Sequence record: NC_001317.1
Source of the DNA: Escherichia phage 186
Strand: one strand, 5' to 3'
DNA: 30,624 nucleotides
Position 1 is the first letter of the stretch. Every line of letters begins with the position of its first letter. The notes beneath the pieces are model-generated. The model did not search any database. It was not told the DNA's origin and was given only the letters and a program-made list of their open reading frames with translations. The position numbers were made by a program, and so were the translations under genes. Shown here in pieces: positions 24,433 through 30,335 of this stretch.

Positions 24433-24666
24433 ATGAGTCGAACTATTTATTTATCAACGCCGAGTGGTGCTGGCGACCACTTGCTGGAGTCTTTGTTTAA
24501 AGAAGCCAAAAAAGAAGAGCGCAAAGACCGCCGTCTCGCCGTTTCAATCCGTCTCGAAGATCTGGCCGTTCACATTACCAATTCAGATATGACAGGCAAA
24601 GAAGCGGCCGAGCTACTGCGCCGCGAAGCCACTCGCTTTGAGAACGAATCACAGGAGCTTCACTAA
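24433..24666 (+). CDS. Hypothetical early protein
   Basis: 77-aa ORF with a strong SD (AGGAGG); charged, helical-looking sequence with no recognisable motif. Confidence 0.6.
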   Translation: MSRTIYLSTPSGAGDHLLESLFKEAKKEERKDRRLAVSIRLEDLAVHITNSDMTGKEAAELLRREATRFENESQELH

Positions 24667-24893
24667 TGGCCGACGCAATGGATTTAGCACAACTGCGCGA
24701 GCAGGAAGACCGCGAACGCCACATAAGCAACGCGCGCAGCCGTCGCCATGAGGTTTCTGCATTTATCTGTGAGGAATGCGATGCACCTATCCCGGAAGCG
24801 CGCCGCCGAGCCATACCGGGCGTGCAGTGCTGCGTTACCTGTCAGGAAATCTTAGAGCTGAAAAGTAAACATTATAACGGAGGTGCTTTATGA
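24666..24893 (+). CDS. TraR/DksA-family C4 zinc-finger protein
   Basis: 75-aa ORF whose ATG overlaps the previous stop; CEEC-x17-CCVTC zinc-finger pattern (FICEECDAPIPEARRRAIPGVQCCVTCQE), typical of phage TraR-like proteins. Confidence 0.7.
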   Translation: MADAMDLAQLREQEDRERHISNARSRRHEVSAFICEECDAPIPEARRRAIPGVQCCVTCQEILELKSKHYNGGAL

Positions 24894-25474
24894 GCATTAC
24901 CAATGCAACTATTAGCCAGCGTGCAAAAAAATGGCTTGAAGATGACCGTATATTTATTGACACCGAAACTACGGGTTTGGGTGATGATGCGGAAATAGTA
25001 GAAATCTGTTTAATAGATAGCGCTGGTTTTATCATGCTAAATACATTGGTTAAACCAACTAAACCAATTCCAGCAGAGGCTACGGCCATTCATGGAATAA
25101 CTGATGAAATGGTTATGTATGCGCCAACGTGGAAAGATATTCACGGCGCAGTAGCTTCTTTATTTTTTGAGTATGGCTTTGTTATTTATAACGCCGATTA
25201 CGACACAAGACTTATATATCAAACTGCGAAATTATATGGGCTTGAGAATGACGGCTTTTGTTATTTTTTAAATGAGCGTTCGGCCTGCGCCATGATGCTA
25301 TATGCAGAGTATCGCGGCGAGCCAGGGCGATTTAAAGGTTATAAATGGCACAAATTAGTTGATGCCGCTGCACATGAAGGGGTTAGCGTTGAAGGAAAGG
25401 CACACCGTGCATTAGCAGATTGCCGGATGACTCTTGGCATTATCGACGCTTTGGCAAAAGGCGGTGCAGCATGA
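24890..25474 (+). CDS. DnaQ-like (DEDDh) 3'-5' exonuclease
   Basis: 194 aa with Exo I (FIDTETTGL), Exo II (VIYNADYD) and Exo III (HRALADC) motifs; translationally coupled; AT-rich. Confidence 0.8.
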   Translation: MSITNATISQRAKKWLEDDRIFIDTETTGLGDDAEIVEICLIDSAGFIMLNTLVKPTKPIPAEATAIHGITDEMVMYAPTWKDIHGAVASLFFEYGFVIYNADYDTRLIYQTAKLYGLENDGFCYFLNERSACAMMLYAEYRGEPGRFKGYKWHKLVDAAAHEGVSVEGKAHRALADCRMTLGIIDALAKGGAA

Positions 25475-25746
25475 GTATCCGTATCGAAATAGGTGATAAA
25501 TGGGTAATCACCAGCGACCAATATCAATTCATCCTGAATGAAAAAAAAGTCGTTAAGACCGGCAATAAAGCTGGCGAGGAATGGCTCGACACCATCGGTT
25601 ATTACCCGAAGATTAATCAGCTCATTTCTGGTCTGGTACATCACCACATTCATACGGCAATGATTATTTCCCTTAGTGCAATGGCAGAGGAAATAGAGAA
25701 GTTATCTTTTATCTGTGAAGAAGCATTTAAGGCGGTTAAAAAATGA
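25471..25746 (+). CDS. Hypothetical early protein
   Basis: The ATG at 25471 overlapping the exonuclease stop gives 91 aa (MSIRIEIGDKWVITSDQYQFILNEKK...); no recognisable motif. Confidence 0.55.
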   Translation: MSIRIEIGDKWVITSDQYQFILNEKKVVKTGNKAGEEWLDTIGYYPKINQLISGLVHHHIHTAMIISLSAMAEEIEKLSFICEEAFKAVKK

Positions 25747-26747
25747 TTGATTCCCGCTGCTTTGCTGAAAGCACAATAAATATTGTTTCTGTTTCTGGTG
25801 GAAAGGACAGCCTTGCTCAATGGATTCTTGCGGTAGAGAACGACGTACCGCGCACCACTGTTTTTGCAGATACCGGGCATGAGCATTCCCAAACAATGGA
25901 GTATCTGGATTATCTTGAATCCAGACTCGGCCCGGTTATTCGAGTGAAAGCCGATTTTACTCGGCGGATTGAAGGCAAACGGAAATTCATTGCTGAAAAA
26001 TGGCCTGTCTCTCTCGTTGAAGAATGCGGAATGTCTCATGAGCAGGCTGCAGAACGAATCGCAAAGGCACTGGAAATCCTTAAGCCAACCGGTAATCCGT
26101 TTCTCGATTTGTGCATGTGGAAAGGACGGTTCCCGAGCACGAAAGCAAGGTTTTGTTCACTGGAACTGAAACATGACTCAGTACGGGACAAGATTGTACT
26201 CCCAGCGCTGGAGAAATATGACGAAGTAATTCTATGGCAGGGTGTTCGTGCTCAGGAGTCACCAGCCCGCGCTGCGTTACCTATGTGGGAGGAGGATGCA
26301 GATAATACCCCCGGTTTGCATGTGTATCGCCCAATTCTTAACTGGACACATGAAGACGTATTTGCCTTAGCTAAACGACACGGAATTAAACCGAACCCAC
26401 TCTATCAGCAAGGTTGTAGCAGAGTTGGCTGCATGCCATGTATTCATGCAAGAAAATCTGAGCTGGCAGAGATTTTTGCTCGCTGGCCGGAGGAGATTGC
26501 GCGCGTTGCAGAGTGGGAACGTCTTGTTGCTGCCTGTTCACGTCGGGGAAACTCAACATTTTTCCCTTCGACTCACGACCCGCGGCGAGCAGAAAAACGT
26601 ATTGAAGTTGTTACCGTAGAAGAATATGGGATAGCTTCATATCGTGACTGGGCGATGACTACGCGTGGCGGTTCTCAGTACGATTTGCTCGCTGCTACAA
26701 ACGACAAAACTGTGTGCAGTAGCGTTTATGCCGGTGTATGTGAATGA
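25743..26747 (+). CDS. PAPS reductase-like / PP-loop ATP-pyrophosphatase family protein (DndC-like fold)
   Basis: 334 aa with the N-terminal PP-loop SVSGGKDS and a C-terminal Cys cluster (GCSRVGCMPC); translationally coupled upstream and with gene A downstream. Confidence 0.8.
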   Translation: MIDSRCFAESTINIVSVSGGKDSLAQWILAVENDVPRTTVFADTGHEHSQTMEYLDYLESRLGPVIRVKADFTRRIEGKRKFIAEKWPVSLVEECGMSHEQAAERIAKALEILKPTGNPFLDLCMWKGRFPSTKARFCSLELKHDSVRDKIVLPALEKYDEVILWQGVRAQESPARAALPMWEEDADNTPGLHVYRPILNWTHEDVFALAKRHGIKPNPLYQQGCSRVGCMPCIHARKSELAEIFARWPEEIARVAEWERLVAACSRRGNSTFFPSTHDPRRAEKRIEVVTVEEYGIASYRDWAMTTRGGSQYDLLAATNDKTVCSSVYAGVCE

Positions 26748-28828
26748 CGGGTGTCGTTTACGCGTTTCCGTGGAATGCCCCACGGTCGGCAATAGCCAGC
26801 TCATATCTTACCTATGACCAACAGCATCGCCGCGACCGTATGTTCGCGGCTTTGCTGCATGCGAGAAAGGTGCTTTTTCTCCAGCCAGAATGTGTGCGCT
26901 TTGACGTTTATCGCACCGCTGCAGTTCTGGAGCAAAATCAGGGCAGTCAACGAGCCAATGCCTTTTTAATCAGCTTCTGCAAAAAGGCATTACCACGTCT
27001 TGAACTGGTCGCAAAAAAATACGAGTGCTCGGGCATCAACAGCAATGTATCAGCCGCTGTTTTCGATGGTCATTTTGATACCCAGCTTATGCAATATCTG
27101 GCGTCACGCATGGTCAATATGGTCGCCAGATTTAACCGCCTCCCGGATATGTCGCGCGCCGATATTGACCTGCTGGCCGCGGATATCGCTAATTTTATTC
27201 GCGCTGAACTGGCCGACATTGATGACACCGGATTTAGCGAACTCAAAACGCTGTACACTTGGTACATGCGCGCCGGTTTTATTTCCCTGCAATTCAACGT
27301 TACACCGCCGAAATGGGAGCGTGTGACTAAAAAATATTTTTGTGAGGATGAAATCGCACCGGCAGTAATGCGCATGTTTAATGAGGTTTGGTGGCGCGGC
27401 CGCTTGCGACGCATTGCGGCTGCATGGCGCGAACATCTGCAAATTGCAGTCGGCAACGTAAGCAAGAAACGACACGCATACGCGAGTAAAAACTGCGTCA
27501 CCGACTGGCGCGAGCAGAAGCGCCGCACGCGCGAATTTCTCAAGGGGCTGGATCTCGAAGACGAAGAAGGCAACCGCATCAGTCTGATTGAAAAATACGA
27601 CGGCTCGGTCGCTAATCCAGCAATACGCCGCTGTGAGCTGATGGCCCGCATTCGTGGGTTTGAAAATATCTGTAATGAGCTCGGTTATGTCGGGGAGTTC
27701 TATACTCTGACTGCACCGTCTAAATATCACGCCACCACCAAAGCGGGCTACCGTAACAGCAAATGGAACGGTGCAAGCCCGTCAGACACGCAGAGCTATC
27801 TCACAGGCCTTTGGGCACGCATACGCGCCAAGCTGCACCGGGAAGAAATCCGCATTTTCGGAATACGCGTCGCTGAACCGCATCACGATGGAACGCCGCA
27901 CTGGCATATGCTTATGTTCATGTTGCCGGAAGATGTCGAGCGTGTGCGACTCATCATCCGAGATTATGCGTGGGAGGAAGACCACTACGAACTGAGAAGC
28001 GATAAAGCCAAAAAGGCGCGCTTCCATGCTGAGGCCATTGACCCGGAAAAAGGCAGTGCTACTGGCTATGTCGCTAAATACATTTCCAAAAATATCGACG
28101 GTTATGCTCTCGATGGTGAAACCGATGACGAAAGTGGTGAGTTGTTAAAAGAGACTGCACCCGCCGTTTCAGCATGGGCGGCGCGCTGGCACATCCGTCA
28201 GTTTCAATTTATCGGCGGTGCGCCGGTGACGGTATACAGGGAGCTACGCAGAATGGCTGACCCTGAAACAGCCAGGGCGCTCAGTGTTGAATTCGCCGCA
28301 GTGCATGATGCTGCTCACTATGGACGCTGGGCTGATTATGTGAATGCTCAAGGCGGACCATTCGTTCGCCGTGACGATTTACAGGTACGTACATTGTATG
28401 AACCTCGAACTGAATTTAATCAGTATGGCGAAGAAACTGTGTGCATCAAAGGTGTCTACGATGCCTCGATAGGTGCTGGCTCTCCTATTCTAACCCGGTT
28501 AACGCAGTGGAAGATTGTTCCAAAGCGTGCCGTTGATTTGGCCGTTGACGTTAAGGGCGCTTCTGCGCCCTCTCGGAGTTCTGTCAATAACTGTACGGGA
28601 AGCGAAAGCGATCCACCGATACTCGATTTAACAAAACCGCTGAGTCGGCGTGAAAGACGAGAGTTGACGAACCGACTCAGGAAGAAAAAGCCAACAACAC
28701 GGCGAAAATTCATCCACGGAACGGATAAGCAAAACGTCGCTATAACGAAAACTATCGACGAGATACACTCTGACAACCGGCATCACAATCAGCCGGGGCG
28801 AAGCCCTGCACCTGATGGCCGGTGGTAA
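26744..28828 (+). CDS. A: Rolling-circle replication initiator endonuclease (P2/186 gpA family)
   Basis: 694 aa with the HUH-type motif (HHDGTPHWHMLMF) and active-site tyrosine region (GYVAKYISKNIDGYAL); last gene of the early operon. Confidence 0.92.
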   Translation: MTGVVYAFPWNAPRSAIASSYLTYDQQHRRDRMFAALLHARKVLFLQPECVRFDVYRTAAVLEQNQGSQRANAFLISFCKKALPRLELVAKKYECSGINSNVSAAVFDGHFDTQLMQYLASRMVNMVARFNRLPDMSRADIDLLAADIANFIRAELADIDDTGFSELKTLYTWYMRAGFISLQFNVTPPKWERVTKKYFCEDEIAPAVMRMFNEVWWRGRLRRIAAAWREHLQIAVGNVSKKRHAYASKNCVTDWREQKRRTREFLKGLDLEDEEGNRISLIEKYDGSVANPAIRRCELMARIRGFENICNELGYVGEFYTLTAPSKYHATTKAGYRNSKWNGASPSDTQSYLTGLWARIRAKLHREEIRIFGIRVAEPHHDGTPHWHMLMFMLPEDVERVRLIIRDYAWEEDHYELRSDKAKKARFHAEAIDPEKGSATGYVAKYISKNIDGYALDGETDDESGELLKETAPAVSAWAARWHIRQFQFIGGAPVTVYRELRRMADPETARALSVEFAAVHDAAHYGRWADYVNAQGGPFVRRDDLQVRTLYEPRTEFNQYGEETVCIKGVYDASIGAGSPILTRLTQWKIVPKRAVDLAVDVKGASAPSRSSVNNCTGSESDPPILDLTKPLSRRERRELTNRLRKKKPTTRRKFIHGTDKQNVAITKTIDEIHSDNRHHNQPGRSPAPDGRW

Positions 28829-29043
28829 AAGTTGTTTTAACGGTCGATGGGTGCGCGGAACGTCAAAAGGTGAAATCTTTGCTGCAGCTCCTTCACATCA
28901 GGCGAGACGCGGAAAATCCTTAATCGTGTTGCAGATTTAGCTGAGCTGGCAACGAAAATGTAACCGCTAATATTCATCCATATCATGTACATACAGTGTA
29001 TTTAACTGTGATTTTTTTCTTCACACCTTTTGCCAATACGTGC

Positions 29044-29522: not shown

Positions 29523-29547
29523 TCCCTGAAAAATGTGCAACCATCGA

Positions 29548-29578
29548 CCCCATGTTTGATAGCATGGGGTTGTTTTGT
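29548..29578 (+). terminator. Rho-independent terminator after the antirepressor gene
   Basis: CCCCATG-TTTGATAG-CATGGGG hairpin followed by TTGTTTTGT. Confidence 0.6.
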
Positions 29579-29603
29579 ATGGGATTACACACAAAGGAAA
29601 ATC

Positions 29604-30335
29604 ATGGATACCGTAATAGCATTTTTATCTCTGGCTCTCTTTATTGCTTTTATCGTCGGGTTAATCAAGCCGTCGCTGGTTCGAATGCCGAGCCGTAAGC
29701 GCTCCAGTGCTGTTTATCTCGGTGGCTGTCTGGCGCTGGGCGTTATTGGCTCAATCTTATGGCCGACTGAAAAAACTCAGCCGGTGGCAAAAACTGACGT
29801 ACCGGCGGTTAAAGCGGAACCGGCTACGCCAACGTTTGAGTACGCAGATAAAACCCTCAAAGAATATCGCAACGAGCCAAAAGAAACCCGGCACGAAATC
29901 GTTAAAGACTATGTTGGATTCAAAGGTGTGCAGGCCAGCGCTACCGATGTTTTTTATGCCTGTATGAGCGAGTACACTTTTACCAAAGATGATGCGTTAA
30001 AGCTCAGTGATGTGTTGGGGTGGTGTTTCAACGACTTCGAGAAAGATCCACAATCTCTGAATAATAAAATCAACCTTGACGAATTTCAGGGTAATTTTAG
30101 CGGTTGGGATGGCTCTTATCGCCCGTTAGAGAAGCTGATAAAAGCCAGTATGAATGATGATTCCTCTTATAAACATGTTTCAACGGTCTACCATCTGATT
30201 TTGAATAAAGACCCGCATGCCGTTGTAAAAACAACGTTTCGCGGCACTAATGCTTATGGTGGCGTGGTCAAACAGACCGTAGCAGCACGCGTCAACGTGC
30301 GAACGGGCGAGGTCGATTCAATACTCGACAATTAA
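29604..30335 (+). CDS. Membrane-anchored protein of unknown function (N-terminal TM helix plus about 200-aa soluble domain)
   Basis: ORF-track start 29535 would read through the terminator; the ATG at 29604 with SD AAGGAAA gives 243 aa. One hydrophobic helix (VIAFLSLALFIAFIVGLI), a second hydrophobic stretch (VYLGGCLALGVIGSILW), then a hydrophilic domain. Confidence 0.65.
   Translation: MDTVIAFLSLALFIAFIVGLIKPSLVRMPSRKRSSAVYLGGCLALGVIGSILWPTEKTQPVAKTDVPAVKAEPATPTFEYADKTLKEYRNEPKETRHEIVKDYVGFKGVQASATDVFYACMSEYTFTKDDALKLSDVLGWCFNDFEKDPQSLNNKINLDEFQGNFSGWDGSYRPLEKLIKASMNDDSSYKHVSTVYHLILNKDPHAVVKTTFRGTNAYGGVVKQTVAARVNVRTGEVDSILDN

What the first reader, a model, noticed from the sequence alone, without database searches (positions are those of the whole stretch)
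25743..26747. PAPS-reductase-like PP-loop enzyme in the early replication operon
A 334-aa protein with the PP-loop SVSGGKDS and a C-terminal Cys cluster (CSRVGCMPC) is translationally coupled directly upstream of replication initiator A. This fold is used by sulfate-assimilation reductases and by the DNA-phosphorothioation enzyme DndC. In a phage early operon it is a candidate DNA- or nucleotide-modifying or anti-restriction function rather than a metabolic enzyme. Its role in P2/186-type phages is not established as far as I know.
Basis: partly seen in the sequence, partly recalled or inferred. Interest (0 to 1): 0.5.

Follow-up and report, generated by a model that had tools for sequence, protein, structure and literature searches.

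The report
Phage PAPS-reductase-like enzyme, function untested
A 186-type phage carries, just before its replication gene, an intact enzyme of the PAPS-reductase/DndC fold that sits in a swap-in slot other phages fill with DNA-modifying enzymes; it is therefore probably a DNA-modification or anti-restriction accessory rather than a sulfur-metabolism gene, but nobody has tested this.

Summary
ORF 25743..26747 (+) encodes a 334-aa protein with a canonical PP-loop (SVSGGKDS) and the motif CSRVGCMPC. It is joined by ATGA overlaps to the DUF5405 gene upstream and to replication gene A downstream.

It is a full-length member of a large phage, prophage and ICE family. The family is annotated only as "PAPS reductase family protein" (PHROG 424). 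Lambda NinC is a distant relative.

It is not CysH, an APS reductase, DndC or SspD. Every curated model scores far below its cut-off, the CysH ECGLH motif is absent, and no DndD/DndE/SspB/SspC-type partner is present in the window.

The family conserves the PP-loop, C138, the C230-x2-C233 pair (which aligns with Fe-S ligands of APS reductase) and a flexible C-terminal tail that ends in an invariant Cys-Glu. dN is about 0.1 while dS is saturated, so the protein is under strong purifying selection.

The slot 5' of A is variable cargo. In other phages it is empty or holds Dam, Dcm, a DpdA-like transglycosylase or DUF3850. In unrelated elements, DNA methyltransferases are about ten-fold enriched immediately next to family members. 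One published PAPS-domain::Dam fusion is implicated in escape from Dnd.

Best reading: an early-expressed, ATP-dependent nucleic-acid-modifying or counter-restriction accessory. Its chemistry and target are inferred, not shown. The gene and family are already known; the function is open and testable.

The parts
25743..26747 (+). Gene for the 334-aa PAPS-reductase-like PP-loop protein, stop codon included
   Evidence: ORF and translation. Pfam PF01507 E=1.2e-43. PHROG 424 E=2.9e-82 and phrog_15238 E=1.2e-85. AF2 model pLDDT 93.8.
25788..25811 (+). PP-loop SVSGGKDS (residues 16-23), the ATP alpha/beta-phosphate binding motif
   Evidence: Translation. G20, D22 and S23 are invariant and S18, G19 and K21 are at least 90% conserved in 50 homologues down to about 40% identity.
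26154..26156 (+). Cys138 in the invariant motif F-C-x-x-E-L-K (K143 also invariant); candidate third Fe-S ligand
   Evidence: Invariant in alignments A1 and A2. Also present in lambda NinC as 'FCTDRLK'. Its equivalence to the Cys-Cys pair of APS reductase could not be resolved.
26415..26441 (+). CSRVGCMPC (residues 225-233); the conserved core is R227-V-G-C230-x-P-C233
   Evidence: C230 is invariant, C233 is at least 90% conserved and C225 is not conserved. C230/C233 align with 'GCEPC' of P. aeruginosa APS reductase 2goy and 'GCAPC' of the M. tuberculosis enzyme 7lhr.
26715..26744 (+). C-terminal tail CSSVYAGVCE (C325 ... C333-E334), probably mobile
   Evidence: C333 and E334 are invariant and C325 is at least 90% conserved. 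pLDDT falls to 76, 75 and 58 over the last 30 residues.
25471..25746 (+). Upstream DUF5405 gene (P2 orf83 homologue). Its stop overlaps the start of the PAPS-like gene (ATGA)
   Evidence: Pfam PF17399 E=2e-17. Sequence. In phages with an empty slot this gene abuts A directly.
26744..28828 (+). Replication initiator/endonuclease gene A. Its start overlaps the stop of the PAPS-like gene (ATGA)
   Evidence: Pfam Phage_GPA E=1.9e-136. Sequence. The ORF is 694 aa here but 739 aa in 99.9%-identical contigs, because of one extra C at 28768.
24433..25474 (+). Preceding genes of the same tightly overlapped early-lytic chain: DUF2732, TraR/DksA zinc finger, DnaQ/RNase_T-type exonuclease
   Evidence: Pfam. 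Junctions overlap by 1-4 nt. No promoter-like site lies between 24292 and the gene.

Best explanation
The gene is optional cargo inserted in the variable slot immediately 5' of replication gene A of a 186-type phage. It is co-transcribed and translationally coupled with the early lytic genes, so the protein is made when phage DNA starts to replicate.

It encodes an active enzyme of the PAPS-reductase branch of the PP-loop ATP-pyrophosphatases. It is not a sulfate-assimilation reductase.

Proposed mechanism (inferred):
1. The canonical SGGKDS loop binds ATP and adenylates an oxygen on a nucleic-acid substrate.
2. Three conserved cysteines (C138, C230, C233) hold a [4Fe-4S]-type cluster, as in APS reductase, DndC, TtuA and TtcA.
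3. The mobile C-terminal Cys pair (C325, C333) brings in, or resolves, a sulfur, for example a persulfide from host IscS.
4. The outcome is a modification of phage DNA, or interference with a modification-dependent host defence such as Dnd/Ssp/BREX-4 or restriction enzymes. This would protect newly replicated phage DNA.

Shown: the sequence features, the fold, purifying selection, the cargo-slot behaviour and the adjacency to methyltransferases. Inferred: ATP use, the Fe-S cluster, sulfur chemistry, DNA as the target, and the anti-restriction outcome.
For: - Intact, invariant PP-loop and conserved DTG.E, C138/K143, R169/E172 and C230-x2-C233 across 50 homologues down to about 40% identity.
- dN 0.10-0.12 with saturated dS against homologues of 83-88% amino-acid identity.
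- Confident AF2 model (pLDDT 93.8). Its closest solved folds are PAPS/APS reductases, followed by TtuA, FMN adenylyltransferase and QueC.
- The CxxC pair aligns with the Fe-S ligands of APS reductase.
- CysH has the degenerate loop 'SSSFGIQ' where this family has SGGKDS.
- The slot holds other cargo in related phages: a DpdA-like enzyme in SEN1/SW9, Dcm in an E. coli prophage, Dam in 56 P2-like phage records, DUF3850 or DUF7415, or nothing.
- A P2-type phage, P37, has the same gene in the same place.
- The identical protein occurs in a phage that carries a Lar restriction-alleviation gene two genes upstream.
- In 46 non-P2 loci, 12 of 41 genes of at least 150 aa at offset +-1 are DNA methyltransferases, against 5 of 150 at offsets +-4 to 7 (Fisher p=6e-6).
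- In phiE125 a methyltransferase gene overlaps the PAPS-like gene. Parlo and Rivra also carry methyltransferases beside it.
- Piel et al. transferred two genes, one of them a PAPS-domain::Dam fusion, into a vibriophage, and the phage then escaped host Dnd.
- Feussner et al. list Aca-regulated PAPS reductases as candidate anti-defence genes.
- There is no internal promoter, and the six-gene chain is tightly overlapped.
Against: - There is no biochemical or genetic datum for this protein or for any close homologue.
- Scores against DndC/SspD/BrxP models are weak and curated cut-offs are not met.
- The window has no DndD/DndE/SspB/SspC-type partner and no cysteine desulfurase. PT synthesis is reported to need a PAPS-domain protein plus an NTPase.
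- In P2-like prophages the Dam adjacency is confounded, because Dam is a common independent occupant of the same slot.
- The window's copy has no adjacent methyltransferase.
- The equivalence of C138 to an APS-reductase ligand is unresolved.
- Lambda NinC, a distant relative, is dispensable in the laboratory and has no known phenotype.
- In the Piel experiment, a second gene was transferred together with the fusion, and the fusion carries a methylase. The PAPS domain alone was therefore not proven responsible.
Confidence: 0.5

Rival explanations
1. It is an auxiliary metabolic gene: a CysH-type PAPS or APS reductase that boosts host sulfate assimilation during infection. Many genome papers annotate it this way.
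For: The Pfam PAPS_reduct domain is present. The closest solved structures are CysH and APS reductases. The CxxC pair aligns with APS reductase. Some phage papers call such genes AMGs.
Against: NCBIfam CysH scores 68 bits against 154, TIGR00434 44 against 165, and APS_reductase 55 against 235. The catalytic C-terminal ECGLH motif is absent. The PP-loop is canonical SGGKDS, while CysH has a degenerate loop. Extra family-specific features are conserved: a helical insert at residues 73-127 and a C-terminal region at 240-334. Neighbours are replication and DNA-modification genes, never sulfur-assimilation genes.
Confidence: 0.06
2. It modifies RNA or the nucleotide pool rather than DNA. One example is thiolation of host or phage tRNA (TtcA/TtuA/ThiI-like), to tune translation or escape anticodon nucleases. 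Another is conversion of a free nucleotide.
For: It combines a PP-loop with a CxxC pair, a pattern typical of tRNA thiolases. TtuA, ThiI and QueC appear among the fold matches. It is a stand-alone enzyme without a DNA-targeting partner.
Against: No THUMP, PUA or other RNA-binding domain is present. Fold similarity to tRNA thiolases (TM about 0.3) is weaker than to PAPS/APS reductases. The positional link is to DNA methyltransferases and a DNA transglycosylase-type enzyme, not to tRNA genes or RNA enzymes.
Confidence: 0.15
3. It is not an enzyme of modification at all. It would be a regulatory or accessory protein: an IbrA-like co-activator, or a helper of the A protein at the origin.
For: It is translationally coupled to A. 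It lies directly upstream of A in 30 of 76 loci. From memory, IbrA-type proteins were described only genetically, as activators.
Against: Most P2/186-like phages replicate without it, since the slot is empty or holds unrelated cargo. 46 of 76 loci have no A-type gene. All catalytic-type residues are invariant under strong purifying selection, which a purely structural role would not require.
Confidence: 0.1
4. It is a prophage-encoded defence or superinfection-exclusion gene, acting like the modification half of a PT-based system in the lysogen.
For: There are weak PADLOC matches to SspD, BrxP and DndC. From memory, P2-like prophages are known carriers of defence hotspots.
Against: The gene sits inside the CI-repressed early lytic operon. 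It has no promoter-like site of its own and has overlapping start and stop codons. No restriction or sensor partner is present. The occupants of the same slot in other phages are orphan modification enzymes.
Confidence: 0.07

Closest known systems
Phage/MGE 'PAPS reductase family protein' group (PHROG 424 / phrog_15238; for example Yersinia phage P37 QIW90028, Burkholderia phiE125 gp57, Serratia Parlo gp23)
   Same: Full-length homology covering residues 11-334: 82% identity to P37 and 44% to phiE125 and Parlo. All conserved motifs are shared, including the terminal Cys-Glu. All lie in early or replication modules.
   Different: Nothing essential differs; this is the family it belongs to. The window's copy has no adjacent methyltransferase, unlike about a third to a half of the other loci.
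Bacteriophage lambda NinC
   Same: Distant homologue (hhalign probability 99.3%, E=1.9e-20). It shares the DTGxEHP, FCTxxLK, WxGxRAxE and CxxC motifs and lies in the replication-proximal accessory region.
   Different: BLASTP identity is only 22%. Its PP-loop reads SGGRTS, lacking the Asp. It is 290 aa and its C-terminal part is not alignable, so the conserved Cys-Glu end is not shared. It is non-essential and its function is unknown.
Vibrio crassostreae podophage p0018, a PAPS-domain::Dam fusion (Piel et al. 2022; preprint 10.1101/2021.05.05.442762)
   Same: A phage-borne PAPS-reductase-domain protein physically linked to a DNA adenine methylase, in a variable anti-defence region. It is the only experimental link of such a protein to escape from a host defence, namely Dnd.
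   Different: It is a fusion protein of 479 aa. I could not obtain its sequence, so homology beyond the Pfam domain is untested. A neighbouring gene was transferred with it, so the role of the PAPS domain itself is not isolated.
DndC / SspD / BrxP (sulfur-inserting enzymes of DNA phosphorothioation systems)
   Same: PAPS_reduct fold with a canonical PP-loop and conserved cysteines. There are partial profile matches: SspD 69 bits, BrxP 47, DndC 26.
   Different: Scores fall far below the family cut-off (TIGR03183: 21 against 290). The protein is 334 aa, against profile lengths of 447-779 positions for the DndC and BrxP models. It has no DUF4007 or DndD/DndE/SspB/SspC partners and no linked desulfurase. 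The Cys spacing differs from that of DndC (spacing recalled from memory).
Assimilatory PAPS reductase CysH and APS reductase
   Same: These are the best structural matches (Foldseek E about 1e-6, TM 0.4/0.6). The CxxC pair aligns with the Fe-S ligands of APS reductase.
   Different: There is no ECGLH catalytic motif. The PP-loop is canonical rather than degenerate. A roughly 55-residue helical insert and a 95-residue C-terminal extension are present. Curated cut-offs are not met.

Membership tests
Phage/MGE PAPS-reductase-like family (PHROG 424) | Full-length profile match | tested here: met
   phrog_424 E=2.9e-82 over residues 1-333. phrog_15238 E=1.2e-85. 302 clusters at 50% identity with E<1e-30, mostly full length.
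Phage/MGE PAPS-reductase-like family (PHROG 424) | Family-invariant residues: SGGKDS, DTG.E, C138/K143, G167/R169/E172, NPLY, RVGC.PC and the terminal C-E | tested here: met
   All are present in the window protein.
Adenine nucleotide alpha-hydrolase / PP-loop ATP pyrophosphatases | SGGxDS PP-loop at the end of the first beta-strand of a Rossmann-like fold | tested here: met
   SVSGGKDS directly follows strand E11-16 of the model. Fold matches to PAPS reductases, TtuA, GMP synthase and QueC.
Adenine nucleotide alpha-hydrolase / PP-loop ATP pyrophosphatases | ATP to AMP + PPi activity | not testable with these tools
   Needs an enzyme assay.
CysH PAPS reductase | Score above the curated equivalog cut-off | tested here: not met
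   NF002537: 68.2 bits against 154. TIGR00434: 43.8 against 165.1. TIGR02057: 39 against 254.2.
CysH PAPS reductase | C-terminal catalytic Cys in an ECGLH motif | tested here: not met
   The C-terminus reads ...CSSVYAGVCE and no ECGLH is present. The motif definition is from established knowledge of CysH.
APS reductase (Fe-S type) | Cys-Cys ... Cys-x-x-Cys ligands of a [4Fe-4S] cluster | tested here: inconclusive
   The CxxC pair is present and aligned. There is no Cys-Cys pair. A single invariant C138 lies about 8 residues upstream of the aligned position, and its equivalence is unresolved. TIGR02055 scores 55 against 235.
DndC (DNA phosphorothioation) | Score above the TIGR03183 cut-off | tested here: not met
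   21 bits against 290.4. The PADLOC DndC models score at most 26 bits, over residues 131-212 only.
DndC (DNA phosphorothioation) | Operon with DndD (ATPase) and DndE, often with DndA/B | tested here: not met
   The window neighbours are DUF5405, an exonuclease, a TraR-type zinc-finger protein and A. No such partner was seen in the Pfam scans of the neighbours of 76 loci, although only the top 25 families are listed per scan.
SspD / BrxP | Association with SspB/DUF4007 and an SspC/BrxC ATPase | tested here: not met
   Neither is in the window. The SspD profile matches partially at 69 bits and BrxP at 47 bits.
IbrA / YbdN-type proteins paired with a ParB-like IbrB | Adjacent ParB/Srx-domain partner | tested here: not met
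   There is no ParB-like gene in the early operon of the window. No homologue of the phiE125 gp58 ParB-like protein was found in 80 loci by phmmer. phiE125 itself does have one. Homology of this family to IbrA/YbdN was not tested because those sequences were not at hand.

The most novel reading that the evidence does not exclude
The protein is a self-sufficient, single-polypeptide DNA-modifying enzyme. It would adenylate a DNA oxygen (a backbone phosphate or a base carbonyl) and replace it with sulfur, using an Fe-S cluster and its own C-terminal cysteines, without any DndD/E- or SspB/C-type partner. That would give model phage 186 a previously unseen DNA modification, either a minimal phosphorothioation route or a thio-base, which defeats modification-sensing or restriction defences.
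Probability: 0.15. Interest if true: 0.8.

Novelty: already known. Interest (0 to 1): 0.38.

Why it matters
Thousands of prophages, phages and ICEs carry this family: 6,191 clusters at 90% identity. Databases label it a sulfur-metabolism enzyme, and that label is very probably wrong.

The family has no demonstrated activity. Its placement beside, or in place of, DNA methyltransferases and a DpdA-like enzyme makes it one of the more common uncharacterised candidate anti-restriction or DNA-modification functions.

This copy sits in a 186-type phage, a classical and genetically tractable system with a defined early operon. That makes the open question directly testable through a deletion, plating on hosts carrying Dnd, Ssp, BREX or restriction systems, and DNA mass spectrometry.

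A positive result would re-annotate a very large gene family. It might also reveal a minimal sulfur-insertion pathway.

Tried and rejected
- NCBIfam and PADLOC scans gave no membership above any cut-off.
- A PDB sequence search of the C-terminal 140 residues found no homologue beyond the CxxC region.
- I tried to fix the alignment of C138 to the Cys-Cys pair of APS reductase using profile and sub-sequence searches. It stayed unresolved. Model coordinates are not exposed, so Cys-Cys distances could not be measured.
- The AFDB50 fold library was unavailable. BFVD returned only generic 'PAPS reductase' viral proteins.
- Literature searches for IbrA/IbrB/YbdN/YbdM, PptA, NinC, 186 orf84/CP84 and for PAPS reductase with anti-defence found no functional study of this family.
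- The PNB-2 partner of a Stx-phage methyltransferase turned out to be an unrelated wHTH protein.
- Pfam scans of longer family members for fused domains found only one sub-threshold SAM-methyltransferase hit. Cluster look-ups gave only generic names.
- The ParB-partner idea, raised by phiE125 gp58, did not generalise.
- I first read the Dam gene directly upstream, seen in 14 of 30 P2-like loci, as evidence of functional coupling. I then down-weighted it, because Dam alone is a common occupant of the same slot in phages without the PAPS-like gene.
- The first attempt at search for related loci with the 50-sequence alignment failed for lack of a conserved stretch. A 13-sequence alignment worked.
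- Phage 186 records (NC_001317, U32222) are not in the held collections. The identity of the window with 186 therefore rests on its length and gene content only.
Full report
**1. Observation.**
The ORF is exactly as described: 25743..26747 on the + strand, ATG start, 334 codons and a TGA stop. SVSGGKDS occupies residues 16-23, and CSRVGCMPC occupies residues 225-233.

The start codon overlaps the stop of the upstream DUF5405 gene (aaaATGAtt). The stop overlaps the ATG of gene A (gaATGAcg). Gene A is a Phage_GPA replication endonuclease, E=1.9e-136.

From 24433 to 28828, six genes follow each other with 1-4 nt overlaps. No sigma-70-like site lies on the + strand between 24292 and the gene. The gene is therefore part of the early lytic transcript that starts near the cI/apl divergent region.

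The window is 30,624 nt long. It carries cI, cII (CP76), the DUF2732 gene, a TraR-type zinc-finger gene, an RNase_T-type exonuclease, the DUF5405 gene, A, a DinI-like gene and a P2-type morphogenesis block. In 99.9%-identical contigs, the genes at the corresponding positions are called as Fil and Dhr. The window is thus a complete 186-type (Eganvirus) genome. From memory, 30,624 bp is the length of phage 186 itself, but the 186 records are not in the held collections, so I could not verify this.

**2. What the protein is.**
Pfam PAPS_reduct matches residues 14-235 with E=1.2e-43.

No curated NCBIfam model is reached:

| Model | Score (bits) | Cut-off (bits) |
|---|---|---|
| CysH (NF002537) | 68 | 154 |
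| APS reductase (TIGR02055) | 55 | 235 |
| DndC (TIGR03183) | 21 | 290 |

(all). The PADLOC models for SspD, BrxP and DndC match only partially, at 69, 47 and 26 bits.

By contrast, PHROG 424 and phrog_15238 match at E of about 1e-82 to 1e-85. The big protein collections hold 6,191 clusters at 90% identity, and 302 clusters at 50% identity with E<1e-30. Most are 300-340 aa and align end to end. All carry only the generic name 'PAPS reductase family protein'.

The exact protein occurs in 41 blocks of the assembly collection, always in the same prophage context. The family spans Enterobacterales, Pseudomonas, Burkholderiales, Alphaproteobacteria and Paenibacillus/Lysinibacillus.

Lambda NinC is a distant relative (hhalign 99.3%, E=1.9e-20). 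It is dispensable.

**3. Conserved anatomy.**
In 50 homologues down to about 40% identity, the following are invariant or nearly so:
- the PP-loop (S18 G19 G20 K21 D22 S23)
- D43-T-G-x-E47
- D122
- F137-C138-x-x-x-L-K143
- G167-x-R169-x-x-E172-S
- N218-P-L-Y221
- R227-V-G-C230-x-P-C233
- K238
- W258-E259
- W303, T306, G309-G310
- C325
- the last two residues, C333-E334

The AF2 model is confident (pLDDT 93.8, pTM 0.90). The exception is the last 30 residues (76, 75, 58), which carry C325 and C333. The best solved-structure matches are CysH and APS reductases (E about 1e-6). Next come FMN adenylyltransferase, TtuA, GMP synthase and QueC.

C230/C233 align with GCEPC/GCAPC of the Fe-S-containing APS reductases. 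That these two cysteines are cluster ligands there is established knowledge. Where this family has SGGKDS, CysH has the degenerate 'SSSFGIQ'. This fits ATP use, as in DndC and the tRNA thiolases, rather than PAPS binding.

I could not settle whether C138 corresponds to the Cys-Cys ligand pair. I also could not measure distances, because model coordinates are not exposed.

Against homologues of 83-88% amino-acid identity, dN is 0.10-0.12 and dS is saturated, with nucleotide identity only about 72-75%. The protein is under strong purifying selection.

**4. The slot.**
Flanking DNA (the DUF5405 gene and the 5' end of A) is 88-96% identical to many E. coli, Salmonella, Yersinia, Klebsiella and Erwinia P2/186-like phages. 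None of the 5,426 complete E. coli genomes has the gene at the nucleotide level.

Between the DUF5405 gene and A, those phages have one of the following:

| Slot content | Example |
|---|---|
| Nothing | P2, Wphi, EtG |
| A small ORF | Yersinia MHG phages |
| DUF3850 / 'RNA-binding' protein | Midge, MRSN346647 |
| DUF7415 | E. coli prophage |
| DNA cytosine methyltransferase | E. coli E21 |
| 'Queuine tRNA-ribosyltransferase' (DpdA-like) | SEN1, SW9 (the un-annotated SI22 match spans the same length) |

In the annotated examples examined (P37, SEN1, E. coli E21), the cargo gene keeps a 4-nt overlap with A. In a further 56 P2-like phage records, a Dam methylase gene lies next to the TraR/DksA zinc-finger gene, that is, in the same part of the early operon.

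P37, a P2-type phage with a C/Cox/B early region, has an 82%-identical copy in the same place. It also carries an ASCH gene and a Dcm gene just after A. In another 186-like phage, the identical protein sits two genes downstream of a Lar restriction-alleviation gene.

The slot is therefore a cargo position, and the identifiable enzymes among its occupants are orphan DNA-modifying enzymes.

**5. Context elsewhere.**
I called ORFs in 76 species-representative loci and clustered the neighbours. Thirty loci have an A-type gene within three genes downstream, 25 of them immediately downstream.

At least 35 of the 76 loci have a DNA methyltransferase within three genes:
- D12 Dam in 20 loci
- C5 Dcm in about 15 loci
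- N6_N4 in 3 loci

The Dam adjacency in P2-like loci (14 of 30 at position -1) is confounded by Dam's independent use of the slot.

In the 46 loci of other kinds, the enrichment is clearer. These are lambda-like replication modules with O/P/DnaB/RusA/Q, and ICEs with AcaB, DUF3158 and DUF2857. There, 12 of 41 genes of at least 150 aa at offset +-1 are methyltransferases. A direct Pfam scan finds 5 of 150 at offsets +-4 to 7 (odds ratio 12, Fisher p=6e-6).

phiE125 has an overlapping methyltransferase gene, then the PAPS-like gene, then a ParB-like gene. The ParB link does not generalise. No DndD/E-type or SspB/C-type partner appeared in any scan.

**6. Literature.**
- Piel et al. (preprint 10.1101/2021.05.05.442762) moved two genes, one a PAPS-domain::Dam fusion, into a vibriophage. 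The phage gained the ability to grow on a Dnd-carrying host.
- Feussner et al. 2026 list Aca-regulated PAPS reductases as putative anti-defence genes and cite Piel.
- A 2024 Thermus-virus paper states that these phage proteins 'deserve further investigation'.
- PT synthesis in Dnd, Ssp and BREX-4 is reported to need a PAPS-domain protein plus an NTPase.
- Several phage papers still call such genes sulfur AMGs.
- I found nothing on the 186/P2 gene itself.

**7. Mechanism, with what is shown and what is inferred.**
Shown:
- an intact, selected PP-loop enzyme of the PAPS-reductase fold
- expression within the early lytic operon
- optional cargo status
- positional exchangeability, and adjacency, with DNA-modifying enzymes

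Inferred:
- It binds ATP and adenylates an oxygen of a nucleic-acid substrate.
- C138/C230/C233 bind an Fe-S cluster.
- The mobile C-terminal cysteines shuttle or resolve sulfur.
- The outcome protects replicating phage DNA from a modification-dependent or restriction defence. This could be by modifying the DNA itself, or by plugging into or blocking a host PT system.

I put 0.5 on the general reading (a nucleic-acid modification or counter-defence accessory). I put about 0.15 on the specific, novel reading: stand-alone sulfur insertion into DNA. The rivals are an RNA or nucleotide target (0.15), a regulatory or replication helper (0.10), a lysogen defence (0.07) and a CysH-type AMG (0.06).

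**8. Comparison and novelty.**
The protein works most like DndC/SspD and the Fe-S tRNA thiolases. It fails every membership test for DndC, SspD, CysH and APS reductase. It is a clear member of the uncharacterised phage/MGE PAPS-reductase-like family.

The ORF, its family label and the anti-defence hypothesis are all already public. The feature is therefore 'already known' as an object.

What this work adds:
- the definition of the conserved Cys set, including the terminal Cys-Glu
- the demonstration that the 5'-of-A position is a DNA-modification cargo slot
- a controlled measure of methyltransferase adjacency

**9. Verdict.**

Interest is moderate at 0.38. This is a very common, mis-annotated family without a known function, sitting in a tractable model phage. 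It is not a surprise to specialists, and it is not new as a sequence feature.

Noticed in passing
window 28768 (also 25738, 28907-28909, 29580, 30489): Compared with a 99.9%-identical prophage on metagenome scaffold L088, the window has single-base indels, several of them in short base runs. The extra C at 28768 ends the gene A ORF at 28828, giving 694 aa. In L088, L089 and L091 A is 739 aa. The extra A at 25738 changes the last codons of the DUF5405 gene. These look like sequencing or assembly differences, so the annotated A protein of this genome may be truncated artificially.
   Followed up: partly
L090:4434-5081 (equivalent to window 24890..25474): A 186-like phage encoding the identical PAPS-like protein has a 215-aa Lar_restr_allev (restriction alleviation) gene where the window has the RNase_T-type exonuclease. 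A second position of the early operon is therefore also exchangeable cargo with an anti-restriction flavour.
   Followed up: no
L002:2237-3067 (Salmonella phage SEN1), same slot as window 25743..26747: SEN1 and SW9 carry a 'queuine tRNA-ribosyltransferase' (DpdA-like) gene in the slot, overlapping A by 4 nt; the un-annotated SI22 match spans the same length. This would imply 7-deazaguanine insertion into phage DNA using host preQ0. It was not examined further.
   Followed up: no
window 24890..25474: The early operon encodes a DnaQ/RNase_T-type exonuclease (Pfam E=1.1e-17). In the Piel et al. vibriophages, escape from retron Ec48 mapped to a phage exonuclease with an RNaseT/DNA polymerase III domain, in the same genomes that carry the PAPS::Dam anti-Dnd genes. 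Any relation is untested.
   Followed up: no
window 29535..30335: A 266-aa ORF, called as 243 aa in the related contigs, lies downstream of the DinI-like (Tum-type) gene. It has no Pfam match and its N-terminus looks hydrophobic. It is unexplained late or accessory cargo near the right end of the genome.
   Followed up: no
L036, L038, L040-L042, L054 (genome loci): In Citrobacter, Morganella, Brenneria and Neptuniibacter, family members (58-60% identity in the first three) lie among ICE/IncC-type genes (AcaB, DUF3158, DUF3085, DUF2857, DUF3275). The family is therefore not confined to phages.
   Followed up: partly
window 24433..24666: The DUF2732 protein gives a sub-threshold Pfam hit to Nmad5 ('nucleotide modification associated domain 5'): E=0.0088, 16.6 bits against a cut-off of 27. 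This is probably chance.
   Followed up: no
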